Of a DNA stretch of 64,000 nt, positions 37,768-58,045 are shown one piece after another (the first letter of the stretch is position 1; each line of letters opens with the position of its first letter). Both the position numbers and the translations under genes were made by a program. The DNA is taken from assembly GCA_963757905.1 (NCBI GenBank), contig CAVWSV010000016.1, positions 47,808 to 111,807 on the forward strand. Direction: 5' to 3'. The notes below the pieces were generated by a model. The model was not told the origin of the DNA. It ran no database searches and saw only the letters and a program-made list of their open reading frames with translations. Source of the stretch: an uncultured Acidobacteriota bacterium. Lineage in GTDB: Bacteria > Acidobacteriota > Terriglobia > Acidiferrales > UBA7541.

Positions 37768-38445
37768 TCAGTGCCGCGCGTTCGCGCAAGCGGCTTTGAA
37801 CTCTGAGTAGCTGCCCCAGTCGAAGGCAACCGAAGCGCCATCGATTCGCAGGCCGGAGCGGAACGGCGCTCCTATCTCGCCGTGATCCCCACGCTCATCC
37901 ATCACGAGTTTGGGGCCTTGCCACCCGCCTCTAAGATCGAAGAATCCCCAGTACCCTCCCGTATTGATGATTCTGTGCTCGAGAAGACGGAAAGCCATGA
38001 GACTGCCATCGGTACTCCGCCAGCCGCCATAGATCGTGCCACTCAGGTCGAGATACTGAGTGACGCCCGGCGAAGTGCACAGCCAGCCGCCACCCTGCAG
38101 ACCGCCCGTGGGGCGCAGGCCTTCCAGGTGAAGCCGGGAAAAATGAGAAGACGGGTAGAAATTAATGTACAGCGGATACTCGTTTCCGTTTTTTGTAAGA
38201 AGCTCGCCGTATCCGTGCCATGTGAGCAGGGGCGTCCAGCGTCCGCCGATATGGAATGACCATGGGTCAGTTATTAAAACCAAGCCATAAAGCAGAGCGC
38301 CCCCGAGAATCGCTACAAGCAGCAGCGAAAAAAGTTTGGTGAGGCAGCCGCGCCGTACTCGCCGACCGACGTCGGGGACTTGCCCGGAGAGGTAGTCCTT
38401 GATGAGTTCGGCCTGTTGTTGCTGCTGTGTGGAACGATTGTCCAT
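37768..38445 (-). CDS. Hypothetical single-pass membrane protein
   Basis: Gln-rich N-terminus, one TM helix (LFSLLLVAILGGALLYGLVLI), and a Gly/Trp-rich extracytoplasmic region. No family recognised. Confidence 0.5.
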   Translation of the reverse strand: MDNRSTQQQQQAELIKDYLSGQVPDVGRRVRRGCLTKLFSLLLVAILGGALLYGLVLITDPWSFHIGGRWTPLLTWHGYGELLTKNGNEYPLYINFYPSSHFSRLHLEGLRPTGGLQGGGWLCTSPGVTQYLDLSGTIYGGWRSTDGSLMAFRLLEHRIINTGGYWGFFDLRGGWQGPKLVMDERGDHGEIGAPFRSGLRIDGASVAFDWGSYSEFKAACANARH

Positions 38446-38481
38446 TTTCGTGTTTCCTCACATATACAAAGTGAAACGGCG

Positions 38482-39180
38482 CTAAGGCTGTGTTACGTTC
38501 GCTTCGTAATGCTCTTTCTGCACAGTTCCATCCTTGAAGTGATCCTCTACATCGAGAACGAACTTGACGGGGCATCCGGCCCGCGTCACCCAAGCAGAAC
38601 CTTTCACAAATCCATTCGCACCCAGCACGCTTCTGATCAACGAAGCGTCGGTCGGCGTGTCTAGGGAAGTGTCTATCGCGTATTTGATTGTGTTTTCGCC
38701 ATTCACATTTTCGCTGCCCGCGCGCACCGTCGCCGACGAGTTGTTCACCAAGGCAAATGTGCTCGCCGGAAGCGGCCCGGTTAAAACCAGGACGGCCGTA
38801 TTCCAACTGGTGCTATCGGAACGAACGCTGTGGATTGCCCGCGTGCCGGAACTGTCGATCAGTGTGCCTGCAATCGAATCGGGCGTCACATCTGCCTCCC
38901 AGTCCGCGTTTGTCATCGGCGGCACTACTTTTTTAAACGACCAGTGAAACGGTGTCGGGGCTTTTTGAATTCGGTCTGCTGCGCACTGGAGATCAATCCC
39001 TGGGTTGTCGCTGCTAGAAGAAGACGTAGCGGATGTAGCCCCGACTGTTGCTAGTATGTCTGAGGGGTTTTTCTGATTTCCTCCCGGAGAAGCGGAGTTG
39101 CACCCGAGAACAGCGGCCAGCAACAAACCGGTCGCCGTCAACGCAAGCAACTGTGCGCGGCGGGCGCTTTGCCTCTGCAT
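38482..39180 (-). CDS. Uncharacterised lipoprotein, paralog family A (copy 1)
   Basis: Lipobox LAAVLGC. Shared family motifs: PFHWSF, DWEADVTPDSIAGT, SSGTRAIHSVRSD, VNGENTIKYAIDTS and GSAWVTRAGCPVKFVLD. Confidence 0.65.
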   Translation of the reverse strand: MQRQSARRAQLLALTATGLLLAAVLGCNSASPGGNQKNPSDILATVGATSATSSSSSDNPGIDLQCAADRIQKAPTPFHWSFKKVVPPMTNADWEADVTPDSIAGTLIDSSGTRAIHSVRSDSTSWNTAVLVLTGPLPASTFALVNNSSATVRAGSENVNGENTIKYAIDTSLDTPTDASLIRSVLGANGFVKGSAWVTRAGCPVKFVLDVEDHFKDGTVQKEHYEANVTQP

Positions 39181-39310
39181 GTCGGCCTCTTCCTTTCCAT
39201 GACGCTCAGCAATGACTCATCAGAGCGACCACTCCGGACGCCACCGCCAAATCCGTGCATCGCCTCGGCAAACCGCGAACAGCACCTCTCCTACGCGATC
39301 TTGCAACCGG

Positions 39311-39994
39311 TCACTGTTTGGTCATCCCCACGTCGAGATGCTCCTTGTCCAGAGTTCCGTCATGTTGTTCGAACGCCTCGTCGAGTGAAAACTTGACGAC
39401 GCAGCCTTCCTTGTCAGCCCAGGCAGTTCCGGTGATGTAGCCCTTTGCACCCACAGCATACCGAAGCGCGACAGCATCCGCAGCGGACGCGTGCGAAGTG
39501 TCAATCGTGTACTTCGTGGTGTCGTAGCCATTCACGGTCTCGCGTCCTGCGGGAGCAATCGCAGAGGTACCGTAGAGAAGGCGGAAATGGCCCGACTGGG
39601 AACTAAGAGGAAAGGTCGCAACCGCGGCGCCCCAGCTTGACTGATCCGTGCGAACTCCGTGAATTTTCCTCGTGCCCGAGCTGTTCGTCCACGTACCGTC
39701 AATGGTGTTCGCCGTGATATCGGCCTCCCAGTCAGAGTGGCCGCTCGAGTCGTCCAATTTCCAGGACAGATGAAACGGAGCGGGAGCCTGCATGACGCGG
39801 CTGGCGTAACACGCGAGAGTGGGACGAGGCGCTGCGTTGCTTTGAGACGGACTCCCACTGGCTTGAGACGGGCTTGCGCTGCTTTCCTGGCCCTTTGAAG
39901 CAGGACCGGAGCTGCATCCCGAAGCGACGAGAAACAGCAGGCCCGTCGCCGCCAATGCGAGCAGCCGCGGGACGCGAACTATTTTTCGGCTCAT
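39311..39994 (-). CDS. Uncharacterised lipoprotein, paralog family A (copy 2)
   Basis: Lipobox LVASGC. Family motifs: PFHLSW, DWEADITANTIDGT, SSGTRKIHGVRTD, VNGYDTTKYTIDTS and GTAWADKEGCVVKFSLD. Confidence 0.65.
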   Translation of the reverse strand: MSRKIVRVPRLLALAATGLLFLVASGCSSGPASKGQESSASPSQASGSPSQSNAAPRPTLACYASRVMQAPAPFHLSWKLDDSSGHSDWEADITANTIDGTWTNSSGTRKIHGVRTDQSSWGAAVATFPLSSQSGHFRLLYGTSAIAPAGRETVNGYDTTKYTIDTSHASAADAVALRYAVGAKGYITGTAWADKEGCVVKFSLDEAFEQHDGTLDKEHLDVGMTKQ

Positions 39995-40101: not shown

Positions 40102-40659
40102 TCAGTTCATGCCGGCCGGGCAGCTTGCGCCGATCCAGTTGCTGGTGTAATCCGCATGCATATGCACTGATCCGCTGTCACCAAAAGGAGTGTTGCCGCT
40201 GAACGTCACATCCATCGATCCTGTCAGGTGGCCCGAGTCCACCATGTGGAACTTGCCGTGTCCCCCGGCCGTCATGCCATTGCTCACGTCGCACCCTGTG
40301 GCTTGCACGTCCACGTCGGTGCCGGTGGATTTCAGCACAGTCATGGAGGAACACTTGTATCCAGACAACCCTTTGGCCCACTGATTTTTGGACAACTGCT
40401 CCGGCTTGACGCAACTCTTGTACGTATGGGGAGTGGGATTTATCGCTGCCGCCATTTGTGGCGGAAGTCCGCTGTACTTCCCGGTCATAGTCGTTTGCCA
40501 AACGCCGGTCTTCATGTTCAGCGGCGTGAGCTGCGCGCTTGCCGCCTTCGCCGCGTCTGTCGTGGGCTTTCTCGACTGCGATTGCGCCACAAGCACCGTG
40601 GTCGCAAAAGCCAGCGAAGCCGCCAGACAAATCACCGCCACTCCAATTGCTTTCCTCAT
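40102..40659 (-). CDS. Exported DUF3617-like protein
   Basis: ATG 40659 follows GAGGAGG. A signal peptide is present. GVWQTTMTG..., spaced cysteines (SCVKPEQL, YKCSSMTV, ATGCDV) and the size fit DUF3617. The assignment is tentative. Confidence 0.5.
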   Translation of the reverse strand: MRKAIGVAVICLAASLAFATTVLVAQSQSRKPTTDAAKAASAQLTPLNMKTGVWQTTMTGKYSGLPPQMAAAINPTPHTYKSCVKPEQLSKNQWAKGLSGYKCSSMTVLKSTGTDVDVQATGCDVSNGMTAGGHGKFHMVDSGHLTGSMDVTFSGNTPFGDSGSVHMHADYTSNWIGASCPAGMN

Positions 40660-40722: not shown

Positions 40723-41202
40723 TCAAATCCGCGCCGCGATGGAGGCGGCCAAGTCTTTGGCCTGCTTTTCATTCGCGGGATCGATTGAGATGTAGTAACG
40801 AACTTTGCCTTTCAGCACATGAATCGCATGGCTGTTATCCATGTAGGCGGCGTCTCCTATTGCAGGCTTCGATTTGGCCGGGAACCACATGGACAACTTA
40901 TCGAAGGTCTGCTTCGCCGCCGCGGCTGTTTGCTCGATGTAAACGATGAAAGTAACCTTTGTGTTCGGTCCTTTTTGCGAATCATACTGGCACTGCGTGC
41001 CCCACGGCTGTTTGCCGTATGCCGGCGGCCATTTGCTCTCCGCGGGTGCGCCGAACGGCTGCCCGAGGACTTTCTGAATCTGCGCCGGAGTGAGCAGGGA
41101 GCAGCCATCCGCTGGCGGCGCAGCGTAGGCCGCTTGCGAACTGTACATCGTGAAAACAAGAAACGTCCCCAAAACTACTGCTACTTTAGATTTCCAATTC
41201 AT
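40723..41202 (-). CDS. Small exported protein, paralog family B (intact copy)
   Basis: Signal peptide MNWKSKVAVVLGTFLVFTMYSSQAAYA, then AAPPADGCSLLTPAQIQKVLG, shared with the two decayed copies downstream. Confidence 0.6.
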   Translation of the reverse strand: MNWKSKVAVVLGTFLVFTMYSSQAAYAAPPADGCSLLTPAQIQKVLGQPFGAPAESKWPPAYGKQPWGTQCQYDSQKGPNTKVTFIVYIEQTAAAAKQTFDKLSMWFPAKSKPAIGDAAYMDNSHAIHVLKGKVRYYISIDPANEKQAKDLAASIAARI

Positions 41203-41262: not shown

Positions 41263-41762
41263 TCACAGCTTCGCGAGAACATCCCGCGCCAGCGTCTTTT
41301 CCTTCGTCTTAACTTGGTCAACGGAAAAAGTGCGGCTGCGGTGCACGCGAATGCCAAACACGACACTTCCCTTCTTGACGCGGATCTCCATGTATTGGGG
41401 GCCCGAGGCCATGGCCAGGTAGTATGCGTCGTCGCCAAGACCGCTAACGGGCGTCATGGAAGTTGGTGCGTTTGCGGTCTTGGCCACGGTCTTGGCCGGG
41501 GTGTAGCCCTGCTGGTCGAGGATGACGAGATCGACTCTCCGCAGCGCCGAGCCTGGCTTGGCGCCAGGTCTGAGACCACATGCACGCCTTTGGACCAAGA
41601 TTCCTGCGCGCTAACCGGGACGCCCAGCGCGGCGCTCACCTGCGCTGGTGTGAGCAGTGAACACGCATCCGTTGGCGGCGCTGCGTAGGCCGGTTGCGTA
41701 CTACACATCGCGAAGATAAAAATTGCCGCAAAGATCGTTGCAACTGTAGCTTTCGAGTTCAT
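41263..41762 (-). pseudogene. Family B paralog, frameshifted
   Basis: The N-terminal part (MNSKATVATIF...AAPPTDACSLLTPAQVSAALG) lies in track ORF 41454..41762. The C-terminal part (...GDDAYYLAMASGPQYMEIRVKKG...VKTKEKTLARDVLAKL) lies in 41263..41598 in another frame. The 500-nt span is not a multiple of 3. Confidence 0.7.
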
Positions 41763-41829
41763 ATCGCCATCCTCCTCAAATTTAGTGTTCGTTTCGTGAC
41801 GATCGCTGAATCGCTAGCCATACAACGGG

Positions 41830-42306
41830 TCACAGCTTCGCCAGAATATCCCGCGCCAGCGTCTTTTCCTTCGTCTTTGACCTGTTCCGGCGGGAAGCCT
41901 AGGACACGGACGTTGAACGCAAAGTTTCCTTTTTTGACGCTGAGGACCAGTGCCGAACCCGGGCGTGGTCATGTACCGGGCCTCATCGCCGATCGCCTGC
42001 GGCAGCTTCTACCTTGATGCCCGGGAAGCGGTGTCTTTTGGCGCTGAGCGAACATGACTCACGGTGATAATTGCGACCACGCACTGCGTTTTGCGGCGCC
42101 CGACCGCCATAGCGGCACAACGTCGGAGCTCGGCGGGCAAAAGCGATGCGTGCGCCGCGCCGACCGAAGTACCCACGACGGCACTAACCTGTGCAGACGT
42201 TAGAAGCGCGCACGCATTGGTTGGCGGCGCGCCATACGTCGTGCGCGAGGCTCGCTAGCGCGAACCCGAAGAAACCTGCAAACATCATCGTCAGTTTAGA
42301 TCTCAT
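41830..42306 (-). pseudogene. Family B paralog, heavily decayed
   Basis: Own translation: MRSKLTMMFAGFFGFALASLA..., then homology hops frames (...APPTNACALLTSAQVSAVVG..., ...AIGDEARYM..., ...KTKEKTLARDILAKL-stop) with internal stops. The 3' ~45 nt are nearly identical to copy 2. Confidence 0.6.
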
Positions 42307-42336
42307 TTCATGTTTCCTCCTTTCAACACTCGCTGC

Positions 42337-42650
42337 TTATTTCGCCAGCGCGACTTCGACGCGGCGATTCAAGATCTTCCGTTCGCCGTCGCGTTGTCCG
42401 CCACGGGCCGCTCGCGCCGAAGCCCTCCGGACTCGAGCCGGTTTGCCACCACGCCGTGTGTGTGAGCCATGCGACGACAGAGGCGGCACGTGCTTTGGAA
42501 AGCGGGATGTTGAGTCTGTCGGAGCCCTGATTGTCGGTGTGGCCTGAGATGATCCAGCGCGAGCCCGCATGGTTTTTATCAGACCAAGCACGGCGTTCAA
42601 CGCCGGCAAGCTGTCGCCGCGAGCTTCGACGAATCGGTGTCGAAATGAAT
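42337..42650 (-). pseudogene. OmpA-like peptidoglycan-binding domain remnant (C-terminus of the 42597..44573 gene) broken by four 1-nt deletions
   Basis: Own three-frame reading: IYGIHFDTDSSKL / GDSLPALNAVLGLIK / NHAGSRWIISGHTDNQGSDRLNIPLSKARAASVVAWL...GFGAS / PVADNATANGR / LNRRVEVALAK-stop. The frame order 0>2>1>0>2 means one missing nt at each junction. Confidence 0.75.
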
Positions 42651-44573
42651 CCCGTAGATTGTGGCGGATCCGGTTTGCGCGATGGATTGCTCGAGTGCCG
42701 CGGTGCTTTCCTGATGACGATGCAGCTGGATCTCAGCGTTTCCCGCCTGCCCCGCCACTAAATCCACCGGCACGGAATTTTCGTCGTATCCCGGCGCACT
42801 CGCAGTTGCAACCACAAGACCCGCGGGAAGTCCTTTCAGCTGGCATTTGCCTTGGCGGTCCGCGGCAGCAGATGTAAGACCGGCACTGACCGTCGCACCG
42901 ACAATAGGTTTGTGGGTGTCTGCATCGGTTACCGTTGCGGTGAGCGACACCTCGTATTTGAACTTGTGCGGATTCACCAAAATGCGCACAAAGTCAATCG
43001 CATAGCCGTCGGGGACATGAGTGGTCGGATCGTCAATCAACAGATTTGCTGTACCGGATTTCAGCAGCGGCCAATACTCCGGCAGGAGCCGGAGAGTCAG
43101 CAGTTTACCGATCGGCCCGCTCTGGTCCAGCGAATTTATCGCGTACTCGAAACTCGGGATTCGCGTGCCATTCAGGCTCACTTGGAAGTGCGAGTGCATC
43201 GGACGTGGTTGAAAGTCATCCACAAAGATCTGGAAAACCACGGCGTCGATTCTGGCGGGCAGGGCACCGACTGACATCGCAACTGGAACTGGAACTGTAA
43301 GCTCGCGTTCTCGTGTGCACTTGGGAGCCCAGTACCGTGTCATTTCTTGCTGGCCTTCTTCTTTGGACGCGATAACTATCGGTGCGTGCGCATCTTCGAG
43401 TTGCGTTTCGAAATTGCGTATCAGGAAGCAATCTCCGAGCGAGCCGCTATATCCGTCGCTTGGCAGTCCCTGCTTCACAATCAAGGCGACGACGATACGG
43501 TCCGCTTGGCCTGCGACGTGTTGTATGCTCATGTGTACAGGCATAACACCTGTGCCCAGCATGATGCGATCTGTTCCCGGCGGCGCGTTCGGTGGGATGT
43601 GATCGATATTTGGCCATGGATGACCCGGCGTTGATTGTCCAGAAAATGGATCGAATCCTTTCGGCCAGCCGAATCCGAGATTGTTAATATCTCCGGTCCG
43701 TACCACAAGATCCGCCTCTGGGCCGCCCACGGTTCGTTCATATTCCAGCGGCCAGTCATGCGCTGGATTTCCCGTACCGGCGACCGGCACGATAGGAACG
43801 GGCTTGGGAAGCGGCGGCGGGATCAGCGCGGCGTCGGCGGCTGCCGAAGCAGCTGCTATGGCAGCCGGAGAGCCGGGAGCTGGAGCAGAGGCAGAAGAAG
43901 AGGAAGTGCGGGTAGAAGTAGAACCCGACGCAGCGCCGGCGATCCCGGGAATCGCATTCAGCGGATTCGTCCCGCCCTGTTTCTGCGCATTTTGCGCGAT
44001 GGCGTTTGCGGCGTTTGCCAGTTCGCTGATGCTCTTGTTGACGTCCGCCGGCGTTTGTTTCTTCGCGTTTTGTCCTGCAGCGTTCGCCTTTGCAGCCAGG
44101 TCCGCAAGATTTTTCTCGAAGTCGGATGCTGCCTCGGCAGCAGCGGCCTTCTCCTTCGCGCGATGCGCTGCGTGGATGAAGCCGGCGATTGCCACGACCA
44201 ATATCAACACCAGCACGATGGCGCCGCCAATGATCGCTCCTTTCGGAATTCCCGCCGCGGATTTCGCAGAGGAAGCAGCAGCGTGAGATCCAACTCCACT
44301 TGTGGCCACACTGCTGGGAGTCGCGGCCGCAGCTTTTTCCGCAGACGCTGTACTGCTTGTTACCGCGGGTGCCGCGCTGCTTGAAACAGCACCCGCGGGT
44401 GCTCCGCATTTCGTGCAGAACTTTGTGTCGCCCAGAAGAGGCGCGCCACACTTCGTGCAAAAGTGTTTTGGCGCAACGGGCGCGGCCGTATCATTTCGCG
44501 GCGCGCCGCACTTCGTGCAAAACACATCGCGCTCGGTCAGCGCCGCGCCACATTGATTGCACGTAGTTGCCAT
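42597..44573 (-). CDS. Zinc-ribbon (x3-4), TM, low-complexity linker, unknown domain, carboxypeptidase-regulatory-like domain protein (OmpA-like end truncated)
   Basis: MATTCNQCGAAL..FCTKCGAP..FCTKCGAP..FCTKCGAP, then a TM helix (GAIIGGAIVLVLILVVAIAGFI) and an Ala/Ser-rich linker. The CarboxypepD_reg-like stretch is VSLTATVTDADTHKPIVGATVSA...APGYDENSV. The ORF ends 13 aa into an OmpA-like domain. Confidence 0.75.
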   Translation of the reverse strand: MATTCNQCGAALTERDVFCTKCGAPRNDTAAPVAPKHFCTKCGAPLLGDTKFCTKCGAPAGAVSSSAAPAVTSSTASAEKAAAATPSSVATSGVGSHAAASSAKSAAGIPKGAIIGGAIVLVLILVVAIAGFIHAAHRAKEKAAAAEAASDFEKNLADLAAKANAAGQNAKKQTPADVNKSISELANAANAIAQNAQKQGGTNPLNAIPGIAGAASGSTSTRTSSSSASAPAPGSPAAIAAASAAADAALIPPPLPKPVPIVPVAGTGNPAHDWPLEYERTVGGPEADLVVRTGDINNLGFGWPKGFDPFSGQSTPGHPWPNIDHIPPNAPPGTDRIMLGTGVMPVHMSIQHVAGQADRIVVALIVKQGLPSDGYSGSLGDCFLIRNFETQLEDAHAPIVIASKEEGQQEMTRYWAPKCTRERELTVPVPVAMSVGALPARIDAVVFQIFVDDFQPRPMHSHFQVSLNGTRIPSFEYAINSLDQSGPIGKLLTLRLLPEYWPLLKSGTANLLIDDPTTHVPDGYAIDFVRILVNPHKFKYEVSLTATVTDADTHKPIVGATVSAGLTSAAADRQGKCQLKGLPAGLVVATASAPGYDENSVPVDLVAGQAGNAEIQLHRHQESTAALEQSIAQTGSATIYGIHFDTDSSKLAATACRR

Positions 44574-44642: not shown

Positions 44643-45308
44643 TCATTTCTTGATTCGGGCTATTTCGAAGTGCCGCTTCTCCACGCGACTGTCGATCGGC
44701 CATCCTTCATCCAGAACGAGCTTCACCGCACAGCCGTCCTGCCCCATCCAGACCGTTCCCTTGTCATAACTCCCCGCGCCGAAGAGCGTCTCGATCGTCT
44801 GCCGGTCTGAGGAGTTGGCGCTCGTGGTATCAATGGAATACTTCGTTGTCTGGTAGCCGTTCACCGCCTCGGCGCCGCGGCTCACAATCGCGGACATGCC
44901 TTCCAGGCCGGCAAGCCTCCCAGTCATCCCGGTGAACGCGAGGCTGGACAGGCTCAGCAGCGCGTTGTTCCAACTGTGCTCGTCCGAGCGGACAGCATGG
45001 AGCGACCGCGATCCGGACGTATCCTTGAACACGATATCCATGGCTTCTGGCGTGACATCCGCCTCGTCATCCAGCGAACGGGACGCATCCGAGTACTTAT
45101 AGGAATAGTGGAAGGATTCTGTCGGCTTCTCAACGTGGCCCAGCATGCATCCCACATCAATGTGAGCGCCCGAGCTGTCCGCATCCTGGGCATTCGCGGT
45201 GTCCGATTTTGGGCCGGAAGTGCATCCACACACGGCGAGGAGGGCGAGCGCAGCGACGCCCGCAAGAACACCCCGCGAGAAATATCTGTGATTTGCCTGC
45301 AATGTCAT
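44643..45308 (-). CDS. Uncharacterised lipoprotein, paralog family A (copy 3)
   Basis: ATG 45308 follows GAGGGG (the track ORF starts at an upstream GTG). Lipobox LAVCGC. Family motifs: SFHYSY, EADVTPEAMD, TSGSRSLHAVRSD, VNGYQTTKYSIDTT and GTVWMGQDGCAVKLVLD. Confidence 0.65.
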   Translation of the reverse strand: MTLQANHRYFSRGVLAGVAALALLAVCGCTSGPKSDTANAQDADSSGAHIDVGCMLGHVEKPTESFHYSYKYSDASRSLDDEADVTPEAMDIVFKDTSGSRSLHAVRSDEHSWNNALLSLSSLAFTGMTGRLAGLEGMSAIVSRGAEAVNGYQTTKYSIDTTSANSSDRQTIETLFGAGSYDKGTVWMGQDGCAVKLVLDEGWPIDSRVEKRHFEIARIKK

Positions 45309-48926: not shown

Positions 48927-49442
48927 CTAATGCTTCCCCATCATCGGACAATCGCCTGTTCGTGTTCCTCTGACCGTGAACTTCAGCGACACTCCCTGGC
49001 TTGCTTTCGGCTTCACCGTCCTCACCACCGAAAATTCCGTGCCGCTCAAATTTCCTTCGACATGTACCAACCGATTCGCGCACTCTGCGTCGTACGAAAT
49101 CTTGCCGCCGACATTCCTGAATCGCTTCACCAAACAGGACTCTTCTTCTTTCGGCAGAGCAGCCATCCGGTCACTGAAAATTTTCTCCGGATTGTCCAAA
49201 TCGCGCGGCGCTATGCAGCGTGTGCCGCTCCGCGATTCGTTCTGCCTTTGGTTTTGCACCTCGTACGTAATCGTTAGCGCATACTTGCCTGGCTTCAACT
49301 GCACACTCGCGGCCGCCGCGAGGCCGCCGAACAAACTGGCGACCACAATCACCGCAGCGCCCTTCACTCCCGTGTTTCGTCCCATCATTTGCGCCGCTCG
49401 CCGTCGTTCTCGCATCTTCATGCCTTGCTCATTTGCCCTCAC
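48927..49442 (-). CDS. Exported DUF3617-like protein (second copy in the cluster)
   Basis: Hydrophobic N-terminus (GAAVIVVASLFGGLAAAASV). LKPGKYALTITYE..., spaced cysteines (TRCIAP, ESCLVKRF, DAECANR, GDCP). The start codon is uncertain: GTG 49442, or ATG 49421 or 49415. Confidence 0.5.
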   Translation of the reverse strand: MRANEQGMKMRERRRAAQMMGRNTGVKGAAVIVVASLFGGLAAAASVQLKPGKYALTITYEVQNQRQNESRSGTRCIAPRDLDNPEKIFSDRMAALPKEEESCLVKRFRNVGGKISYDAECANRLVHVEGNLSGTEFSVVRTVKPKASQGVSLKFTVRGTRTGDCPMMGKH

Positions 49443-49445
49443 GCA

Positions 49446-52665: not shown

Positions 52666-54948
52666 TCACCACGGACTCACGCCGCGCGGGCCCCAAACGG
52701 TTATCCATAAGCTGTAAGCGGAGACGCTCGCATAATTGAGCGCACTTCCGGGGTTGCTTGCTGGCCAACAGCCCTGCTCTTGCCACGAGATTTGGACCGA
52801 TGTCGGCGAAGTGTAGTTAACGCCCCAATTCCCACTTGTTGAGAATTGTCCGTTCGGTGATGACTGGCAATCCGCGGCCGTTAGGTCTGAGTGGTACAAC
52901 TGCACGCCGTCGTTAGCCAGCCGAAATCCTGGCGCGAAATGGAATTGATAGCTGTCCGTCCCGCCCGGAAACGTATACGAGCCTGGAAGCGTAAAGCTAA
53001 TTCTGTTTCGATCGACTCCAAGGCTATGTTGCGGCGCAGTGTATATCCACGGCGTCTCATATAGCGGGAGAATCGAGCTGCCCGTCGAATCGTTAACCTT
53101 AGCCAACTGAATCGTGACCGCGCTGGACGACTGCGGCAGGGAAGCCAGCGTTTGGAAATCGTACGCCGCCGCGAAATTGGATCCCGCCGCCTGGTATAGC
53201 TGTCCGCTCGCCGTCTTCACCACCAGCGTCACGTTGTTCGTGTTGTACAACCCGCTCGCATTGGGATCGATTTGCGCCAAGATTTGCCGGTCGCTCCAAC
53301 CATTCGCCGGGATCTGAAATGTCACCCGATCCGGAAACATCGGAACGCCCAGCCGGGCCAATCGGTTTCGAGTATTGGGATAATGCACGCCGCTCAAGTA
53401 CACTTCGCCGGTCTGTGCCCCGAACCCGCATCCTTGAATCACGAACGTGCCTTCTGGCCCGGCAATCGGGTAGAAAAGCACGCCCGATTTTTGCCCGTCC
53501 ACGTTGCCGATTCCATTATTCATGCAAACCTGTGTTTGGAACTGTCTTGCCGTAGCGGCTCGCGTCATAATCGACGGAGTCGGATGCTGTCCCCCCGTCG
53601 GCTGCTGGCGCTGCGGGCCGCTAGGTGTCAATGCGGTCGCCTGTGATCCCGCGACTGTCCCGTTCGGTGTGCTGCCTTGAGCGGACATCGTCTGGCTCGG
53701 TCCCACCTGCGCCGGGGAACCCTTGGGCGGGTATGGCTGCGGATTCAAGTCATCCGCTCTCGCGCTACCCCCATTGAGCATCGTGCCGCCTTGACTTGCA
53801 CCGCCGGGCCCGTTGAGCAATGTGGGATTTTGGCTCGCGCCGCCCGCTAGTAATGTCCCGCCGTTCGCCGGTCCCGTTTGAGCTCCCACCGGTCGCACTC
53901 CACCTGTGAACGTCGTCGGCACCAATATGTGCACAGCGGCGCTCTGCCGTCGAAGTACGGCGATGATCGCGCTATTCGAACCGCCTCCAGATCCGCTAGG
54001 CGCGCTAGGCTTCGTGCCAACCTGAACGCTGTGCGCCAGGGCCTGCGTAACTATCTTGTTCTTCTGCCACGGTTGCGTGCCGCCTTGCACCGGGGGACGA
54101 GGAACTATTCCCGTCATCATGCGTCGCTGCTGCGTCGCTGCCCCAGAACCGCCGCCAGAACCAGAGTTCGACCCGCCGCGCGGTATAAGGGGTTGGAAGG
54201 TACGATTTGTTCCTGCGGTTGACCCGGGACCTCCAGAGCCACTGCCACCCGTGACCGAATGCAGGCCAGAACCGCCAGGGTTAATTCCCGGATTCAGGAC
54301 GCCAGAACCCGTGCCGCCGGAACCGCCGCCACTATTACCTATGGGTTGGCCCGAGCCACACGCATTCGCCGGCACGTGTGTTGCGACGGTAAGTACTGGG
54401 TTACTGCCGGTAAAGCGATTGAACCCGTGTCCTGCAATGCGCGCGCCCACGCCATTTCCAATGGCGGCGACCTGTAGCAAGGACATGTCCCAATTATCTG
54501 GACTTAGGAACGCTTGAGGTATCTCCCATGGCGCTGCGGGAGTAAGCACGCTCGGAAGGCTGTTGAAGTTGAAACCACCGTCAGCGATGTGAATCAACCT
54601 GAGCCCTATAATCTGGTTCGGAGGCACCGGTTGGTTGAGCGGAATGTCCACGGTGTTGGTGCTATTGTTCGGCCAGTTCTGGCTCTTATTAACGTTCAGC
54701 GCAACTTGGGGAGCCCTGCCACCGGCAAAGAGAATTTGAATGTTCAAGTTGTCTTTGCCGCCGCGCAAGTCGTCGCCGCCCGTCACGATCCGTAGCCGAA
54801 TTCGCGTCACTGCGCACGGCCCGCTGCCTCCCGCTGATCCGCCAGTGTTTTGGCCGTAAGCGGCGCTGACAAGAAAAACGCAGCAAGCAATCGCCAACAT
54901 GGCTCGCCGGAGAGATTGTGCGACTGTGTAGCCCATTGTCTGTTTCAT
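52666..54948 (-). CDS. Large exported protein: 'GGDDLRGG' beta-sandwich-like N-domain, Gly/Ser/Pro/Gln linker, IPT-like segment, shared C-terminal module (760 aa)
   Basis: The track ORF was trimmed to ATG 54948, 8 nt after GAGGAGG. Signal peptide (RRAMLAIACCVFLVSAAYGQ). RIRLRIVTGGDDLRGGKDNLNIQILF. The C-terminus FVIQGCGFGAQTGEVYLSG...WITVWGPRGVSPW is paralogous to 50569..52605. Confidence 0.7.
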   Translation of the reverse strand: MKQTMGYTVAQSLRRAMLAIACCVFLVSAAYGQNTGGSAGGSGPCAVTRIRLRIVTGGDDLRGGKDNLNIQILFAGGRAPQVALNVNKSQNWPNNSTNTVDIPLNQPVPPNQIIGLRLIHIADGGFNFNSLPSVLTPAAPWEIPQAFLSPDNWDMSLLQVAAIGNGVGARIAGHGFNRFTGSNPVLTVATHVPANACGSGQPIGNSGGGSGGTGSGVLNPGINPGGSGLHSVTGGSGSGGPGSTAGTNRTFQPLIPRGGSNSGSGGGSGAATQQRRMMTGIVPRPPVQGGTQPWQKNKIVTQALAHSVQVGTKPSAPSGSGGGSNSAIIAVLRRQSAAVHILVPTTFTGGVRPVGAQTGPANGGTLLAGGASQNPTLLNGPGGASQGGTMLNGGSARADDLNPQPYPPKGSPAQVGPSQTMSAQGSTPNGTVAGSQATALTPSGPQRQQPTGGQHPTPSIMTRAATARQFQTQVCMNNGIGNVDGQKSGVLFYPIAGPEGTFVIQGCGFGAQTGEVYLSGVHYPNTRNRLARLGVPMFPDRVTFQIPANGWSDRQILAQIDPNASGLYNTNNVTLVVKTASGQLYQAAGSNFAAAYDFQTLASLPQSSSAVTIQLAKVNDSTGSSILPLYETPWIYTAPQHSLGVDRNRISFTLPGSYTFPGGTDSYQFHFAPGFRLANDGVQLYHSDLTAADCQSSPNGQFSTSGNWGVNYTSPTSVQISWQEQGCWPASNPGSALNYASVSAYSLWITVWGPRGVSPW

Positions 54949-55162
54949 TGGTCGAGCCTCCTCAAAGGGGCTTTCGGCAAATCCATATGCCGAAATACCG
55001 GAACACTGCCGCGGCGTCAAACGACGAGCCTCGGACGATTCTGTGACTTGGTAATTTCCTGAAAAATAAGGTGTTGTCGACTCCCATGACCTGACTCCTC
55101 ACCATGCAATTAAGTCGTGGTATACTCGGCGCCAAAGATCACAGTTTTTTGTGCGAGGCCGC

Positions 55163-58045
55163 ATGAGCGTTCCAACAGCCTCACGGCTGTTCCGATTTGG
55201 ACTCTTTGAAGCAGACTTGGAGAATGCCCGTCTCACGCGCAAAGGCGTGCGCATTCGCCTGCAGGAACAGTCCTTCCGCATTCTCTGGATGCTTCTTGAC
55301 CGCGCGGGTCAAATCGTCACTCGCGAAGACCTTCGGCAAGAGTTGTGGCCGGCGGGAACTTATGTCGATTTTGACGGAAGCTTGAACGCCGCGCTGAAGC
55401 GGCTCCGAGCAGCGCTCGACGATGATGCGGATAATCCGCGATTCATCGAAACGGTTCCCAAGCGCGGCTACCGTTTCATTGCGCCGGTAACCCTCGAGGA
55501 CCATCCGGTAGCAACCGAACCTGAAATCTCATCGCCGCGTCCGTCGCCCGTTGCACAAACTCCCGCAAATCTGCACACGCGCCCATCGAATTACGGGAAA
55601 CGCCGGTGGATCGCCGTGATCGGCGCGGTTGTGGTTATGACTGCGGTGGCTGCCCTGATTATTCTTCGCAAGCGCGCTGCGGCTCATCCCGCTCCGTCTC
55701 CGCAGCCGACCGTTGACCTGGGAACGCTTCGACGTTCCGTTGCTGTTCTTGGTTTTCAAAATGCTTCCGGCCGCCCGAGCGACGAGTGGCTTTCTACGGC
55801 CCTCGCGGAAATGTTGCGGACCGAACTCGGCGCGGGCGGCAAGCTGCGCGTCGTCCCCGGCGAAAATGTTGCGCAACTTCGCCTTGGCTCCCCGTGGTCG
55901 CAGACCGATTCCCTCAGCCAGCAAACTGCTTCACGCGTCGGAAAGGCCCTCAGTAGCGACCTTCTCGTCCTCGGTTCCTTCGCAACTCTGGAGGAACCGC
56001 GAGATGGCAGCGTCCGCGTCGATTTTCGTTTGCAGGATGCTCAGACCGGAGAAATTTTGTACGAAGGCGCGGAGACTGGCAGCGAAAAACAATTTTTCGG
56101 ACTTGTCGCCAAAGTCGGTTTTGAGCTTCGCGAGCGCTTGGGTCTGCCCATGATCACGGAATCGGAAGAAGCTGGCGTGGTTTCTTCTCTGCCCTCCGAC
56201 CCGGACGCCAATCGCTTCTACTCTTTGGGTCTTGAGAAACTGCGCGATGCCGACGTCGCCGCCGCCAAAGACCTTTTCCTTCAAGCTGAGAAACTCGCGC
56301 CGCGATTTCCTCTGGTTCACCTCATGCTTTTCCGTACCTGGGGCGGCCTGGGGTACGACCAAAAGGCCAACGACGAAATAAAGACGGCGTACCAACTCTC
56401 TGCGGGCCTTCCGGAAACCGACAAGCTGCAAATCGAAGGCGCTTATTTCGGGAGCCTGAAGGAGCTGGATAAAGCCGCTGCTGCCTATCGCGCCCTCTAC
56501 ACTCTCTACCCGGACAGTGTGGATTACGCCGAGCAGTTCATCGTCGTTCTCAATGCCGCGGGTCGTCGTGAAGAAGCCCTCGCTGTCGTCAAACAGCTTC
56601 GCAATCTTCCGCCTCCGGCGTCTGACGACCCGCGCATCGATTTCTGGCAGGCACAGCTCATTAGTTACTCCAAGGGAGCCGCTGCGCAGCCATTCTTCGA
56701 AAAGGCCGCTGCCGAAGCGGCTTCTCGCGGACAAAGATTGCTTTATGCGCACTTCCGCCTTAATCAGTGTCTCAACGCGGTCTATGGTGATCACCCGCAG
56801 GGCGCGGTGGCTCACTGTCAGGAGGCGTATGACATCTTCATGGCCGCAGGCAACACCCTTCTCGCTGCCGATGCTTTGCGCACCATGGGCGACCGCCGTG
56901 GTGCCAAAGGCGACTTCAGCGGCGCGCGCGAACTGTACACGCGTGCGCTTGCACTTCTCGGCAAATTGGGCGAGCACGAAAAAACGGGCGTCGTGCTGAA
57001 CAACATGGCCATCACGTACGAGAACCAGGGTCAAATCGACCAAGCCGAAAAGCTTTTTCGCCAAGCTGCCGAGACCTGGAGAGAATGTGGCGACACTCTT
57101 AATGAGGCTGTGGCTCTCGGCAACATCGCGGACATTTTTATGGTCCGTGGCCAGCTTCGCCAGGCCGAAGCGCAGTACGAGGATGCCCGAAGGCGGATCG
57201 AGTCCACCGTTCCGAACAGCAATGTTTCTTATGAGCTTTATAGCATCGCCGTGGTTCGCCTGTACGAAGGCGACATCGCCGGCGCCAGGGACTTTGCCGA
57301 TCGCGCCCTGAAAATGGCCCAGCAGCGCGCTCAAGTAATCGATCTTGCGGAAGCTCACTCCGTCATCGGCGATATTCTGATGGCACAGGACGATCTGCCC
57401 GGTGCGCGTCAGAGTTACGAAAAAGCGCTCGCCATTCGCCGGCAAATGGAGGACAAGGGCAGCATCGCTGAAAAACAAGCTGAGCTCGCCGAATTATCCA
57501 TCGAGGGAGGCAACCTTGCTGATGCGGAGCCAGTGCTAAGAAAGGCTCTCGCTGAGTTCCGCGCGGAGAAAACCTTCTTGGATGAAATCCCCGCGGAGGT
57601 GGACCTGTCTCGCATCTTACTGCGCGAAGGCAAACTCGCGGAAGCGCGCCAGATGATTTCTGATGCGCTTGTTCTAAGTCGCGACAGCCGCGATCCCGCC
57701 TTGAAGATGCCCGTCGCCATTATGGACGCGCGCATCGAAGCCGCCGCGCTCGCTTCACGCGCAAAACCGCAGCCGAATTTATCCGGTCCGCGCCGCAAAC
57801 TTCAAAACGTGCTGTCCACCGCGCGGCAGCTTGGCTATTACGGAATTGAATGCGACGCCCGCCTCGCACTCGCCGAAATCGAACTCCACGTTAACCCTCG
57901 GGCCGCTCGCTTGCACCTCGCCGAGCTTGCGCAGCAGGCACATGATCGCGGCATGGAACTCGTTTCCCGCAAAGCCGCCGCGCTCCAACTCCGCCAAGGA
58001 ATGATAACGGCTACTGGGCAGCGACCAGGTACAAAACCGCTATGA
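55163..58045 (+). CDS. CadC/ToxR-like membrane-anchored transcriptional regulator (OmpR/PhoB-type winged helix, TM helix, large TPR region)
   Basis: The N-terminus FRFGLFEADLENARLTRKGVRIRLQEQSFRILWMLLDRAGQIVTREDLRQELWP...ETVPKRGYRF is the trans_reg_C pattern. TM helix WIAVIGAVVVMTAVAALIIL. About 700 aa of TPR-like helices follow. Confidence 0.85.
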   Translation: MSVPTASRLFRFGLFEADLENARLTRKGVRIRLQEQSFRILWMLLDRAGQIVTREDLRQELWPAGTYVDFDGSLNAALKRLRAALDDDADNPRFIETVPKRGYRFIAPVTLEDHPVATEPEISSPRPSPVAQTPANLHTRPSNYGKRRWIAVIGAVVVMTAVAALIILRKRAAAHPAPSPQPTVDLGTLRRSVAVLGFQNASGRPSDEWLSTALAEMLRTELGAGGKLRVVPGENVAQLRLGSPWSQTDSLSQQTASRVGKALSSDLLVLGSFATLEEPRDGSVRVDFRLQDAQTGEILYEGAETGSEKQFFGLVAKVGFELRERLGLPMITESEEAGVVSSLPSDPDANRFYSLGLEKLRDADVAAAKDLFLQAEKLAPRFPLVHLMLFRTWGGLGYDQKANDEIKTAYQLSAGLPETDKLQIEGAYFGSLKELDKAAAAYRALYTLYPDSVDYAEQFIVVLNAAGRREEALAVVKQLRNLPPPASDDPRIDFWQAQLISYSKGAAAQPFFEKAAAEAASRGQRLLYAHFRLNQCLNAVYGDHPQGAVAHCQEAYDIFMAAGNTLLAADALRTMGDRRGAKGDFSGARELYTRALALLGKLGEHEKTGVVLNNMAITYENQGQIDQAEKLFRQAAETWRECGDTLNEAVALGNIADIFMVRGQLRQAEAQYEDARRRIESTVPNSNVSYELYSIAVVRLYEGDIAGARDFADRALKMAQQRAQVIDLAEAHSVIGDILMAQDDLPGARQSYEKALAIRRQMEDKGSIAEKQAELAELSIEGGNLADAEPVLRKALAEFRAEKTFLDEIPAEVDLSRILLREGKLAEARQMISDALVLSRDSRDPALKMPVAIMDARIEAAALASRAKPQPNLSGPRRKLQNVLSTARQLGYYGIECDARLALAEIELHVNPRAARLHLAELAQQAHDRGMELVSRKAAALQLRQGMITATGQRPGTKPL

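What the first reader, a model, noticed from the sequence alone, without database searches (positions are those of the whole stretch)
37768..58045. Candidate undescribed envelope system: about 17 kb of co-oriented, uncharacterised exported/lipoprotein/membrane genes built from recurring modules, facing a CadC-like TPR regulator
Seen in sequence: from 54948 down to 37768 there are 16 minus-strand ORFs plus pseudogenes, with gaps of 3-130 bp. The same strand continues into the NTF2-like gene, the M48-like gene, LemA and CsbD. I can assign none of the 16 to a known pathway. Nearly all carry a signal peptide, lipobox or TM helix. They reuse a small set of modules. There are four ~230-aa lipoproteins (family A) and two DUF3617-like proteins. 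There are three tandem small secreted proteins (family B, two of them decayed). There are two membrane proteins with cytoplasmic zinc ribbons, one ending in CarboxypepD_reg-like and OmpA-like domains. Two proteins start with AQQ[AT]QKPLTNA[GD]V. Two large proteins share an IPT-like GCGFG...VYLSG segment and a common C-terminal module. There is one 692-aa orphan. A wHTH-TM-TPR (CadC/ToxR-like) regulator is divergently transcribed across a 214-bp gap (54949-55162). Inference: this could be a regulated, multi-component cell-envelope or surface assembly. Speculatively, a Zn-ribbon inner-membrane anchor with a peptidoglycan-binding end would combine with LolA/LppX-sized lipoproteins, lipocalin-like periplasmic proteins and large beta-rich exported proteins. 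The function is unknown, and several members are decaying in this genome.
Basis: partly seen in the sequence, partly recalled or inferred. Interest (0 to 1): 0.7.

Follow-up and report, generated by a model that had tools for sequence, protein, structure and literature searches.

The report
Undescribed conserved acidobacterial envelope gene cluster
This is a real operon-like cluster of about 20 exported, lipid-anchored and zinc-ribbon membrane proteins, kept together next to a membrane-bound regulator in dozens of soil Acidobacteria genomes; it matches no known envelope system and its function is still unknown.

Summary
Window 34.8-58.0 kb carries about 20 co-directional genes for exported, lipoprotein or membrane proteins. 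They face a wHTH-TM-TPR regulator across a 214-bp gap.

All genes are under purifying selection (dN/dS 0.09-0.31).

The invariant core is a DUF8402/8403 beta-rich (lipo)protein next to a Zn-ribbon-TM-X-OmpA_C peptidoglycan-binding protein. The extended core adds:
- a 355-aa protein;
- a Zn-ribbon MamF/Tic20-like membrane protein;
- family-A lipoproteins (weakly LolA/LprF-like fold);
- DUF3617.

A promoter-plus-repeat element is conserved in the divergent gap and occurs once per locus.

- The "692-aa orphan" belongs to a small family.
- The "decaying" genes lie in one error-dense stretch of about 1.1 kb and are intact in near-identical assemblies, so they are probably a consensus artefact.
- IPT-likeness is unsupported.
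- The M48-like protein has lost its zinc ligands in all orthologues.

No profile, PDB or fold search assigns a function. Best reading: a regulated, peptidoglycan-anchored envelope module of a new kind. The mechanism is inferred.

The parts
55163..58045 (+). REG: membrane-bound one-component regulator. It has an N-terminal OmpR/PhoB-type wHTH, one TM helix (aa 147-171) and a roughly 780-aa periplasmic region with TPR/MalT-like repeats.
   Evidence: Pfam Trans_reg_C 2.3e-17, TPR_12 1.6e-22, TPR_MalT 2.5e-18. Hydrophobic segment. Orthologue divergent from the cluster in at least 12 loci.
54949..55162 (.). Divergent control region. Elements: REG-side -10-like GAGTATAnCAC (55117-55127); AGGTCA box 1 (55086-55093); AAGTCA box 2 plus TCGTC repeats at 10-11 bp spacing abutting TTGAC -35 (55016-55051); 17-nt spacer; TATTTC -10 (54992-54997); GAGGAGG Shine-Dalgarno (54957-54963).
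   Evidence: Phylogenetic footprint in 9 loci whose proteins are only 43-90% identical. The composite motif is unique in the window with 0 expected. It occurs once per locus in 12 loci, always in this gap. The generic sigma-70 scan does not call it.
52666..54948 (-). P784: exported 760-aa protein with a Gly/Ser-rich linker and a C-terminal GCGFG...VYLSG module ending in GPRGVSPW.
   Evidence: No Pfam, NCBIfam or PDB match. dN/dS 0.17.
50569..52605 (-). P678: exported protein with the N-terminal QKPLTNADV module and the same C-terminal module as P784.
   Evidence: Only a sub-threshold 40-aa Phage_T4_gp19-like stretch.
49446..50513 (-). P355: exported protein with the N-terminal QKPLTNAGV helical module and a very conserved C-terminal domain (aa 120-355). 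It is the most conserved member.
   Evidence: Alignment A5 has 65% mean column identity. 1344 homologue clusters, all about 350 aa and with no Pfam. No PDB match. dN/dS 0.11.
48927..49388 (-). DUF3617 protein b, exported, with four invariant Cys.
   Evidence: Pfam PF12276 7.6e-10, 40 bits against cutoff 24.5. Alignment A8.
48192..48881 (-). Family-A lipoprotein 4 (lipobox LSGC).
47561..48100 (-). ZnTM: cytoplasmic CxxC-x11-CxxC zinc ribbon plus a MamF_MmsF/Tic20-like polytopic membrane domain.
   Evidence: Zn-ribbon hits around 1e-4 and TIC20 3e-3. PF09685 precomputed on orthologues. Hydrophobic segments.
45385..47463 (-). DUF8402/DUF8403 protein (the '692-aa orphan'): signal peptide, tandem Ig-like sandwiches (aa 50-350) and a conserved all-beta C-terminal domain (aa 380-692). 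This is core member 1.
   Evidence: 86 homologue clusters, some carrying PF28445; PF28444/28445 on relatives. AF2 model pLDDT 75. Foldseek gives Ig-type hits only. The C-domain family has only 36 representative clusters in 1.84e9 proteins.
44643..45308 (-). Family-A lipoprotein 3 (lipobox VCGC).
42337..44573 (-). ZnOmpA: two cytoplasmic Zn ribbons, one TM helix, a conserved periplasmic domain of unknown fold of about 270 aa, CarboxypepD_reg and OmpA_C. This is core member 2. In the window the OmpA part (about 42337-42640) is frameshifted.
   Evidence: Pfam. All 14 of 14 orthologues are intact with OmpA. Indels against L008 and L047.
41830..42306 (-). Family-B copy 1, broken in the window. It is an intact 155-aa gene in near-identical assemblies L047 and L048.
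41263..41762 (-). Family-B copy 2, frameshifted in the window. It is an intact 165-aa gene in L047 and L048.
40723..41202 (-). Family-B copy 3, an intact small secreted protein with two invariant Cys and a faint DUF3558 resemblance.
   Evidence: E 0.009, below cutoff.
40102..40659 (-). DUF3617 protein a, exported.
   Evidence: Pfam PF12276 2.1e-7, 32.1 bits.
39311..39994 (-). Family-A lipoprotein 2 (lipobox ASGC). It is an extra paralogue with no orthologue in L008 or L023.
38482..39180 (-). Family-A lipoprotein 1 (lipobox VLGC). This is the family-A member that was modelled.
   Evidence: AF2 pLDDT 82, above 90 in aa 60-232. Best Foldseek hits are LolA 8veh and LprF 4qa8 at E about 7e-4 and TM 0.2-0.3.
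37768..38445 (-). TM225: N-terminally membrane-anchored protein of unknown fold.
   Evidence: Orthologues are in the same position.
37239..37748 (-). Exported SnoaL/NTF2-like protein. It is an accessory member, present in only some loci.
35380..37236 (-). M48-like polytopic membrane protein with the HExxH and Glu zinc ligands replaced, so a pseudo-peptidase.
   Evidence: Pfam Peptidase_M48 4.7e-14. HLVAS/HLIAS and K in all 7 orthologues.
34783..35346 (-). LemA family membrane protein, the last consistently linked gene.
   Evidence: Pfam 3e-57. It follows the M48-like gene in L004, L006, L008, L017, L018 and L023.

Best explanation
Window 34.8-58.0 kb is a lineage-specific envelope operon of Terriglobia (Acidobacteriota), under a divergently encoded ToxR-type membrane regulator.

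**Shown**
- About 20 co-directional genes with 2-130-bp gaps encode exported, lipid-anchored or Zn-ribbon-anchored proteins.
- The set and its order are conserved across many species and are under purifying selection.
- One conserved promoter-like element, with 10-11-bp-spaced repeats just upstream of its -35, sits in the divergent gap and nowhere else in each locus.
- The invariant core is a DUF8402/8403 beta-rich (lipo)protein next to an inner-membrane protein with cytoplasmic Zn ribbon(s), one TM helix, a periplasmic domain and a peptidoglycan-binding OmpA_C end.
- Members exchange modules. The family-A domain is fused to a Zn-ribbon-TM anchor in some genomes, P678 and P784 are fused in one genome, and P355 and P678 share an N-terminal module.

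**Inferred**
- The products form one peptidoglycan-anchored assembly in the periplasm.
- The Zn-ribbon inner-membrane proteins (ZnOmpA, ZnTM, and in some genomes Zn-ribbon-family A) share a common cytoplasmic handle and fix the assembly to the wall.
- DUF8403 and the large beta-rich exported proteins extend outward.
- The LolA/LprF-like family-A lipoproteins, DUF3617 and family-B proteins hold or pass an envelope-derived, probably hydrophobic, ligand.
- The regulator senses an envelope signal with its periplasmic TPR domain and activates the operon by binding the repeats beside the -35.
- The catalytically dead M48-like protein and LemA are a linked inner-membrane accessory pair.

I am confident that this is a conserved co-regulated envelope module (about 0.8). 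I am much less confident of the physical-complex and ligand-handling mechanism (about 0.3).
For: **Synteny**
- Synteny from the DUF8403 anchor.
- Synteny from an independent P355 anchor.
- The DUF8403 plus ZnR-OmpA pair is found in every locus with enough flank.
- One MAG holds two divergent copies of the cluster, L009 and L017.

**Selection and composition**
- Purifying selection, dN/dS 0.09-0.31.
- Cluster GC of 0.57-0.59 is like the flanks, and there are no mobility genes nearby.

**Export and anchoring**
- Export signals and lipoboxes.
- Invariant Cys pairs in all exported families.
- OmpA_C is confirmed against PDB and NCBIfam.

**Structure and module exchange**
- Family-A fold has a weak LolA/LprF match.
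- Module swaps and fusions.

**Regulation**
- Conserved promoter/operator-like footprint, unique per locus.
- No convincing internal terminators or promoters above chance.
Against: - No experimental or expression data exist, and all homologues come from uncultured MAGs.
- No interaction evidence exists. Synteny would equally fit a co-regulated set of independent periplasmic proteins.
- The LolA/LprF similarity is weak (TM 0.2-0.3). The conserved family-A residues are largely polar (H79, E95, Y167, D170, W197, K206, D210, H224), which is not typical of a lipid cavity.
- The DUF8403 C-domain, the ZnOmpA mid-domain, P355, TM225, DUF3617, family B and the P784/P678 module have no fold or function assignment.
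- The accessory content varies. M48/LemA, SnoaL, P678 and REG are absent from some loci, and family B has 1-6 copies.
- The promoter elements do not meet the generic sigma-70 scan criteria.
Confidence: 0.5

Rival explanations
1. Co-regulated envelope-stress or adaptation regulon. The genes are kept together only because they share the ToxR-like regulator and promoter. The products act independently in the periplasm as binders, chaperones or wall-associated proteins, without forming a machine.
For: - A single conserved promoter or operator.
- Variable accessory content and paralogue copy number among loci.
- Stress-type neighbours: CsbD, LemA and rubrerythrin.
- The seven small or accessory families compared by profile-profile search (family A, DUF3617, family B, TM225, P355, ZnTM, SnoaL) are mutually unrelated.
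Against: - The core pair stays adjacent even where regulator and accessory genes differ, for example the Acidobacteriaceae loci L027-L040.
- Gene order is fixed over about 45-90% identity.
- Domain fusions between members are more typical of physically interacting partners.
Confidence: 0.27
2. Cell-surface or biofilm-matrix display operon. The large beta-rich exported proteins (P784, P678, DUF8403 with Ig-like repeats) are adhesins or matrix proteins. The lipoproteins and the OmpA_C protein serve their export, folding or anchoring.
For: - Tandem Ig-like domains in DUF8402/8403.
- Gly/Ser-rich linkers and beta-rich C-modules in P784 and P678.
- A peptidoglycan anchor.
Against: - No secretion system, sortase, usher, T9SS C-terminal domain or autotransporter barrel lies in or near the cluster.
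- P784 and P678 are absent from the minimal versions of the system.
- The short DUF8403 forms are lipoproteins without Ig repeats.
Confidence: 0.13
3. Accessory island of conflict genes (polymorphic toxin/immunity or anti-phage defence). The tandem, copy-number-variable small secreted and lipoprotein paralogues would be immunity proteins.
For: - Family-B arrays vary from 1 to 6 copies and sit at a strain-variable spot where assemblies break.
- An RHS/YD-repeat gene follows the cluster in L044.
- Low dS of the DUF3617a and TM225 segments hints at recombination.
Against: - PADLOC gives only generic MotB/OmpA_C domain hits.
- No toxin domains, secretion apparatus, integrase or transposase are adjacent.
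- GC is like the flanks.
- Strong purifying selection and a stable core order across genera.
Confidence: 0.05

Closest known systems
OmpA_C-type peptidoglycan anchors with an inner-membrane tether (MotB/PomB, T6SS TssL/TagL, YiaD, Pal)
   Same: The C-terminal OmpA_C domain has the GHTDN...NRRVE signature. PDB and NCBIfam matches are E 1e-26 to 1e-9. It has an N-terminal membrane anchor, so it can tie the inner membrane to the wall.
   Different: - It has one or two cytoplasmic Zn ribbons instead of a plug or stator segment.
- It has no MotA/TolQ/ExbB-type partner.
- It has a conserved mid-domain of unknown fold of about 270 aa and a CarboxypepD_reg domain.
- All equivalog cut-offs are missed by a wide margin, for example YiaD at 107 against 175 bits.
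T9SS PorE
   Same: Tandem CarboxypepD_reg-like domain followed by OmpA_C.
   Different: - NCBIfam PorE scores 55 bits against a cut-off of 600.
- There is no lipobox, TPR or beta-propeller.
- There are no T9SS genes nearby.
- It is anchored by Zn ribbon plus TM.
LolA/LolB and mycobacterial LppX/LprG/LprF lipid- or lipoprotein-carrier lipoproteins
   Same: Family A is a lipoprotein of about 230 aa. Its confident model has 11 antiparallel strands plus 3-4 helices. The best PDB matches are LolA (8veh) and LprF (4qa8).
   Different: - E is only about 7e-4 and TM 0.2-0.3.
- No Pfam, NCBIfam or PDB sequence-profile hit.
- The conserved residues are mostly polar.
- No LolCDE or MmpL partner is in the cluster.
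- In some genomes the domain hangs on a Zn-ribbon-TM anchor.
ToxR/CadC/PsaE-type membrane-bound one-component regulators
   Same: N-terminal OmpR-type wHTH, single TM helix and a large periplasmic sensor part. It is encoded next to its presumed target, whose promoter carries repeats beside the -35.
   Different: The periplasmic part is about 780 aa of TPR/MalT-like repeats with a faint LpoB/LptE/CsgG-like start. It is not a CadC_C1 or ToxR periplasmic domain. DNA binding was not tested.
Zn-ribbon-TM-periplasmic-domain proteins of the Myxococcus Agl-Glt gliding complex (GltJ/GltG). This is recalled from the literature as a lead only.
   Same: The architecture is a cytoplasmic zinc ribbon, one TM helix and a periplasmic wall- or OM-directed domain inside a multi-lipoprotein trans-envelope complex.
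   Different: No sequence relationship was tested or seen. The cluster has no TolQR-like motor, no GYF or TonB_C domains and no gliding genes.
LemA with M48/HtpX-like membrane protease gene pairs
   Same: A LemA gene sits directly after an M48-family polytopic membrane protein.
   Different: The M48-like protein has lost HExxH and the third ligand in all seven orthologues. It cannot work as a canonical zinc protease.

Membership tests
ToxR/CadC-like membrane one-component regulators | N-terminal OmpR/PhoB-type winged helix (Trans_reg_C) | tested here: met
   PF00486 2.3e-17, aa 34-109
ToxR/CadC-like membrane one-component regulators | Single TM helix after the DNA-binding domain, with the C-terminal part periplasmic | tested here: met
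   One hydrophobic segment at aa 147-171. The topology itself is inferred.
ToxR/CadC-like membrane one-component regulators | Family-typical periplasmic sensor domain (CadC_C1 or ToxR periplasmic domain) | tested here: not met
   Only TPR/MalT-TPR plus faint LpoB/LptE/CsgG hits
ToxR/CadC-like membrane one-component regulators | Direct binding to repeats in the target promoter | not testable with these tools
   A conserved repeat plus -35 footprint is compatible with this.
OmpA_C peptidoglycan-binding proteins | Pfam OmpA domain above threshold with the TD..G...NRRVE motif | tested here: met
   14 of 14 orthologues, best 1.8e-20. PDB 1e-26. In the window copy the domain is frameshifted.
T9SS PorE | NCBIfam NF052230 cut-off, with lipoprotein plus TPR plus beta-propeller architecture | tested here: not met
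   55 bits against 600. The N-terminus is Zn ribbon plus TM.
LolA/LolB/LppX-LprG superfamily (family A) | Match to the family sequence models | tested here: not met
   No Pfam, NCBIfam or PDB-profile hit
LolA/LolB/LppX-LprG superfamily (family A) | Unclosed 11-stranded beta-barrel with helical plug | tested here: inconclusive
   The model has 11 strands plus helices. LolA and LprF are the top hits but at E about 7e-4 and TM 0.2-0.3, and GFP-type barrels score similarly.
LolA/LolB/LppX-LprG superfamily (family A) | Hydrophobic ligand cavity and carrier activity | not testable with these tools
   Model coordinates could not be inspected. The conserved residues are mostly polar.
DUF3617 (PF12276) | Pfam gathering score | tested here: met
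   32.1 and 40.0 bits against 24.5
DUF8402/DUF8403 (PF28444/PF28445) | Match to the Pfam models | tested here: inconclusive
   The models are absent from the local Pfam copy. Precomputed PF28445 or PF28444 hits lie on homologues at 34-68% identity. The window protein itself has none on record.
M48 zinc metallopeptidases | Pfam Peptidase_M48 above threshold | tested here: met
   53.1 bits against 20.3
M48 zinc metallopeptidases | HExxH motif and downstream Glu zinc ligand | tested here: not met
   HLVAS/HLIAS and Lys in all 7 orthologues
IPT/TIG domain (P678 and P784 segment) | Pfam TIG or related Ig-like model | tested here: not met
   No hit at E<=1 in 7 members. No PDB profile hit.
Known anti-phage defence systems | Any PADLOC model beyond generic domains | tested here: not met
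   Only MotB/ZorB-type OmpA_C domain hits

The most novel reading that the evidence does not exclude
A previously undescribed, Terriglobia-specific trans-envelope apparatus. Several inner-membrane proteins share a cytoplasmic zinc-ribbon handle. One of them clamps the assembly to peptidoglycan. Together with the DUF8403 protein, P355 and LolA-like lipoproteins, they move or tether envelope material (lipid, lipoprotein or polymer) between the inner membrane and the outer layers. A ToxR-like TPR sensor controls the whole set. This would be a new class of envelope machine in a dominant soil phylum.
Probability: 0.3. Interest if true: 0.8.

Novelty: categorically new. Interest (0 to 1): 0.55.

Why it matters
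Acidobacteriota, and Terriglobia in particular, are among the most abundant soil bacteria, yet their envelope biology is almost unstudied.

This cluster defines at least nine co-inherited protein families with no characterised member: DUF8402/8403, P355, family A, family B, TM225, the ZnOmpA mid-domain, the P784/P678 module, DUF3617 and the Zn-ribbon MamF-like protein. Alongside them sit a concrete regulator, a candidate operator and a minimal two-gene core.

Together these turn a block of 'hypothetical proteins' into a testable system. Work can start with regulator-operator binding, core-pair interaction and envelope phenotypes.

If the products form a machine, it would be a new way of linking the inner membrane, the wall and the outer layers. 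If they do not, the cluster still gives a well-defined ToxR-type envelope regulon for this phylum.

Tried and rejected
**Function assignment**
- Pfam, NCBIfam and PADLOC scans of all members gave only generic domains.
- PDB sequence-profile searches for DUF8403, family A, P355, ZnOmpA, the P784/P678 module, DUF3617 and family B found only OmpA_C.
- Foldseek of the full DUF8403 model against PDB and BFVD gave only Ig-like repeat matches. These mask the C-domain, and I could not crop the model or run a third prediction.
- hhalign between the small families to look for hidden paralogy found none.

**Transcription signals and RNA**
- Generic promoter and terminator scans were at chance level.
- Rfam found nothing in the window.

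**Literature**
- Searches for DUF8403, DUF3617, and Acidobacteria with zinc ribbon and OmpA returned nothing.
- The LemA plus M48 search returned nothing relevant.

**Readings rejected**
- Real pseudogenisation of ZnOmpA and family B. The window is about 99-100% identical to L047 and L048 outside 41.5-42.65 kb. Inside that stretch it has about 50 indels and up to 24 mismatches per 100 bp, and three short-read assemblies break beside it.
- Mobile island or defence system.
- Phage tail tube relationship of P678. It rests on a 35-40-aa sub-threshold motif only.

**Technical failures**
- My first motif search of the loci used a spacing that was off by one and found nothing. It was corrected.
- A look-up of the truncated 658-aa product found no record.

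Full report
**Observation**

The minus strand between 54948 and 34783 carries a continuous run of genes. With starts refined against independent gene calls and signal sequences, the order after the regulator is:

1. P784
2. P678
3. P355
4. DUF3617b
5. family A4
6. ZnTM
7. the 692-aa protein
8. family A3
9. ZnR-CarboxypepD_reg-(OmpA)
10. three family-B genes
11. DUF3617a
12. family A2
13. family A1
14. TM225
15. SnoaL-like
16. M48-like
17. LemA
18. CsbD, after a further 197 bp

Gaps are 2-130 bp.

Every product has one of three export or anchoring features:
- a signal-peptide-like N-terminus;
- a lipobox (LSGC, VCGC, ASGC and VLGC in the four family-A proteins);
- a TM helix.

The regulator on the plus strand (55163-58045) has Trans_reg_C, one TM helix and a long TPR/MalT-like region. 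Base composition of the cluster (GC 0.57-0.59) does not differ from the rest of the window. The surroundings are housekeeping genes.

**Is it more than a local curiosity?**

The '692-aa orphan' has 86 homologue clusters. Every named one comes from Candidatus Acidiferrales, Acidoferrales or Sulfotelmatobacter MAGs, and several carry the recent Pfam model PF28445 (DUF8403).

I tested neighbourhood conservation from two independent anchors.
- Neighbourhoods of homologues at 69%, 58% and 48% identity show the same genes in the same order.
- A scan of one genome per GTDB species returned 37 loci, all Acidobacteriota/Terriglobia apart from one MAG labelled Proteobacteria.
- tblastn and family-HMM maps of these loci give the 'full' arrangement in about a dozen species. 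That arrangement is REG | P784/P678 | P355 | DUF3617 | A | ZnTM | DUF8403 | A | ZnOmpA | B(1-6) | DUF3617 | A | TM225 | (SnoaL) | M48-like | LemA.
- In Acidobacteriaceae-type loci the cluster shrinks to a DUF8403-type lipoprotein directly followed by a Zn-ribbon-TM-X-OmpA protein.
- That pair is present wherever enough flanking DNA is available. It is therefore the invariant core.
- P355 has 1344 homologue clusters, all about 350 aa. Neighbourhoods anchored on P355 again contain a wHTH regulator, DUF8402/8403, the MamF-like Zn-ribbon protein, ZnR-CarboxypepD_reg-OmpA and DUF3617.
- One MAG holds two divergent copies of the cluster, L009 and L017.

All window genes compared with their L008 and L023 orthologues have dN/dS of 0.03-0.32.

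**Regulation**

I aligned the REG/first-gene gap from nine loci whose proteins are 43-90% identical. The alignment shows sharply conserved blocks in otherwise diverged DNA:
- GAGTATAnCAC near the REG start, which reads as a TATACT-type -10 on the REG strand;
- two AGGTCA boxes 42 bp apart;
- TCGTC repeats at 10-11 bp spacing running into TTGAC;
- a 17-nt spacer, then TATTTC;
- a GAGGAGG ribosome site and the ATG at 54948.

The composite element is unique in the 64-kb window, with 0 expected. It occurs exactly once per locus in 12 loci, always in this gap.

Generic sigma-70 and terminator scans find nothing above chance inside the cluster. The simplest reading is one regulated promoter driving a long operon, with the divergently encoded OmpR-type winged-helix protein binding the repeats beside the -35. 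Binding is inferred, not shown.

**What the parts are**

| Part | Result |
|---|---|
| ZnOmpA orthologues | Intact ZnR(x2)-TM-conserved 270-aa domain-CarboxypepD_reg-OmpA_C in 14 of 14. The OmpA_C part matches solved OmpA/Pal/MotB-type domains at 1e-26 to 1e-9, but no NCBIfam equivalog cut-off is reached. |
| 692-aa protein | AF2 model, pLDDT 75. Tandem Ig-like sandwiches, then an all-beta C-domain with three long hairpin strands and a helical insert. Foldseek finds only Ig-type matches. |
| DUF8403 C-domain family | Only 36 representative clusters in 1.84 billion proteins. |
| Family A | AF2 pLDDT above 90 over the domain. Eleven antiparallel strands with three to four helices. Best PDB matches are LolA (8veh) and LprF (4qa8), but at E about 7e-4 and TM 0.2-0.3. 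|
| Family A anchoring | In three genomes the domain is attached to a Zn-ribbon-TM anchor instead of a lipobox. |
| P355, P784/P678 C-module, DUF3617, family B | No Pfam (beyond DUF3617) or PDB relatives. |
| TM225 | No Pfam, NCBIfam or PADLOC hit; not searched against PDB. |
| Family relationships | The seven small or accessory families compared (family A, DUF3617, family B, TM225, P355, ZnTM, SnoaL) are not related to each other. |
| Conserved cysteines | Family A, DUF3617, family B, DUF8403 and the P784/P678 module have invariant Cys residues, fitting disulfide-bonded extracytoplasmic proteins. |
| M48-like protein | HExxH is replaced by HLVAS/HLIAS and the third ligand by Lys in all seven orthologues, so it is a conserved pseudo-peptidase. 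|

**Correction on 'decay'**

The frameshifted OmpA end and the two broken family-B genes all lie between about 41,500 and 42,650.
- Assemblies of a near-identical strain from two other sources (L047 from ENA, L048 from JGI) have an intact OmpA end and three intact B genes of 155, 165 and 159 aa.
- Outside the stretch, the window is about 99-100% identical to those assemblies.
- Inside it, the window carries about 50 single-base indels and up to 24 mismatches per 100 bp.
- Three short-read contigs end or start at 42.80-42.94 kb.

That pattern is not what neutral decay would produce next to unchanged flanks. A low-quality or mixed-strain consensus at a strain-variable spot is the likelier cause. 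Read mapping would settle it.

**Mechanism**

Shown:
- a conserved, selected, co-directional set of envelope proteins;
- an invariant PG-binding Zn-ribbon inner-membrane protein plus DUF8403 pair;
- a conserved single control region facing a ToxR-type regulator;
- module exchange between members.

Inferred:
- The products work together as a peptidoglycan-anchored periplasmic assembly.
- The Zn-ribbon proteins share a cytoplasmic handle.
- DUF8403 and the large beta-rich proteins reach outward.
- The LolA-like, DUF3617 and family-B proteins bind or pass an envelope-derived ligand.
- The regulator's periplasmic TPR domain senses an envelope cue.

I put about 0.8 on 'conserved co-regulated envelope module' and about 0.3 on the complex and ligand-handling model.

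Rival readings:
- The main rival is a regulon of independent periplasmic proteins.
- An adhesin or matrix operon is less likely.
- A conflict island is also less likely: there is no secretion system, toxin domain, defence model or mobility gene.

**Comparison with known systems**

The cluster shares single parts with several known systems:
- OmpA_C anchors (MotB, TssL, YiaD, Pal);
- T9SS PorE (CRD plus OmpA_C);
- LolA/LppX-type carriers;
- ToxR/CadC regulators;
- LemA-M48 pairs.

It fails the defining tests of each as a system (see the membership table). No paper in the searchable library mentions DUF8403 or DUF3617.

I therefore file it as not assignable to any known kind of system. The caveat is that 'system' rests on comparative genomics alone.

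**Verdict**

This is a well-defined, lineage-specific, undescribed envelope operon with a minimal two-gene core and a candidate operator.

It is interesting mainly because it makes a block of acidobacterial 'hypotheticals' experimentally tractable. It is not yet a demonstrated machine.

Noticed in passing
window 41500-42650: This stretch has about 50 single-base indels and up to 24 mismatches per 100 bp relative to near-identical assemblies (L047, L048), which are about 99-100% identical outside it. Three short-read contigs break at 42.80-42.94 kb. It is probably a low-quality or mixed-strain consensus, and it creates the apparent pseudogenes.
   Followed up: yes
window 35380-37236: The M48-like membrane protein has HExxH replaced by HLVAS and the downstream Glu ligand replaced by Lys. 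The same holds in all 7 orthologues, so it is a conserved pseudo-peptidase always followed by LemA.
   Followed up: yes
window 52099-52218 (P678 aa 130-169); also L004:3473-6862 and L016:3213-5930: A 35-40-aa stretch (…ERGVTQDTGFANW…) repeatedly gives sub-threshold hits to Phage_T4_gp19/TIGR02241 tail-tube models (E 9e-6 to 5e-3). It lies inside a signal-peptide-bearing protein, and its meaning is unknown.
   Followed up: partly
L037:5868-6779, L041:10926-11900, L042:14860-15777: Here the family-A domain is fused to an N-terminal zinc ribbon plus TM helix instead of a lipobox. L037 has four consecutive Zn-ribbon membrane proteins after the DUF8403 gene.
   Followed up: partly
window 40102-40659 and 37768-38445: DUF3617a and TM225 have much lower synonymous divergence from L008 than their neighbours (dS 0.13-0.16 against 0.3-0.6). 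DUF3617a is likewise low against L023. This suggests recent recombination or exchange of these segments.
   Followed up: no
L014:3464-6737 and other loci: Family-B copy number varies from 1 (L018) to 6 (L014) in tandem. It is the most variable part of the cluster.
   Followed up: partly
L009 and L017 (both from MAG DASYYT01): One genome carries two divergent copies of the cluster. Their DUF8403 proteins are 84% and 48% identical to the window's.
   Followed up: no
L045:11141-11737 and L046:11611-12192: A small methyltransferase-like gene (weak PCMT/DOT1/Methyltransf hits) sits inside the cluster, close downstream of P355, in two distant versions.
   Followed up: no
L044:18755-21071: A large RHS/YD-repeat (TEN_YD-shell) protein gene directly follows the second DUF8403 gene of that cluster.
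   Followed up: no
L004:3473-6862: A single 1129-aa protein combines N-terminal P678-like and P784-like segments. It is a fusion of two genes that are separate in the window.
   Followed up: partly
window 12582-13979: A DDE transposase (DDE_Tnp_1, DUF772) lies on the minus strand, coinciding with a local reversal of GC and AT skew. It is more than 20 kb from the cluster and unrelated to it.
   Followed up: partly
window 1-64000: No Rfam family reaches its gathering score anywhere in the window.
   Followed up: yes
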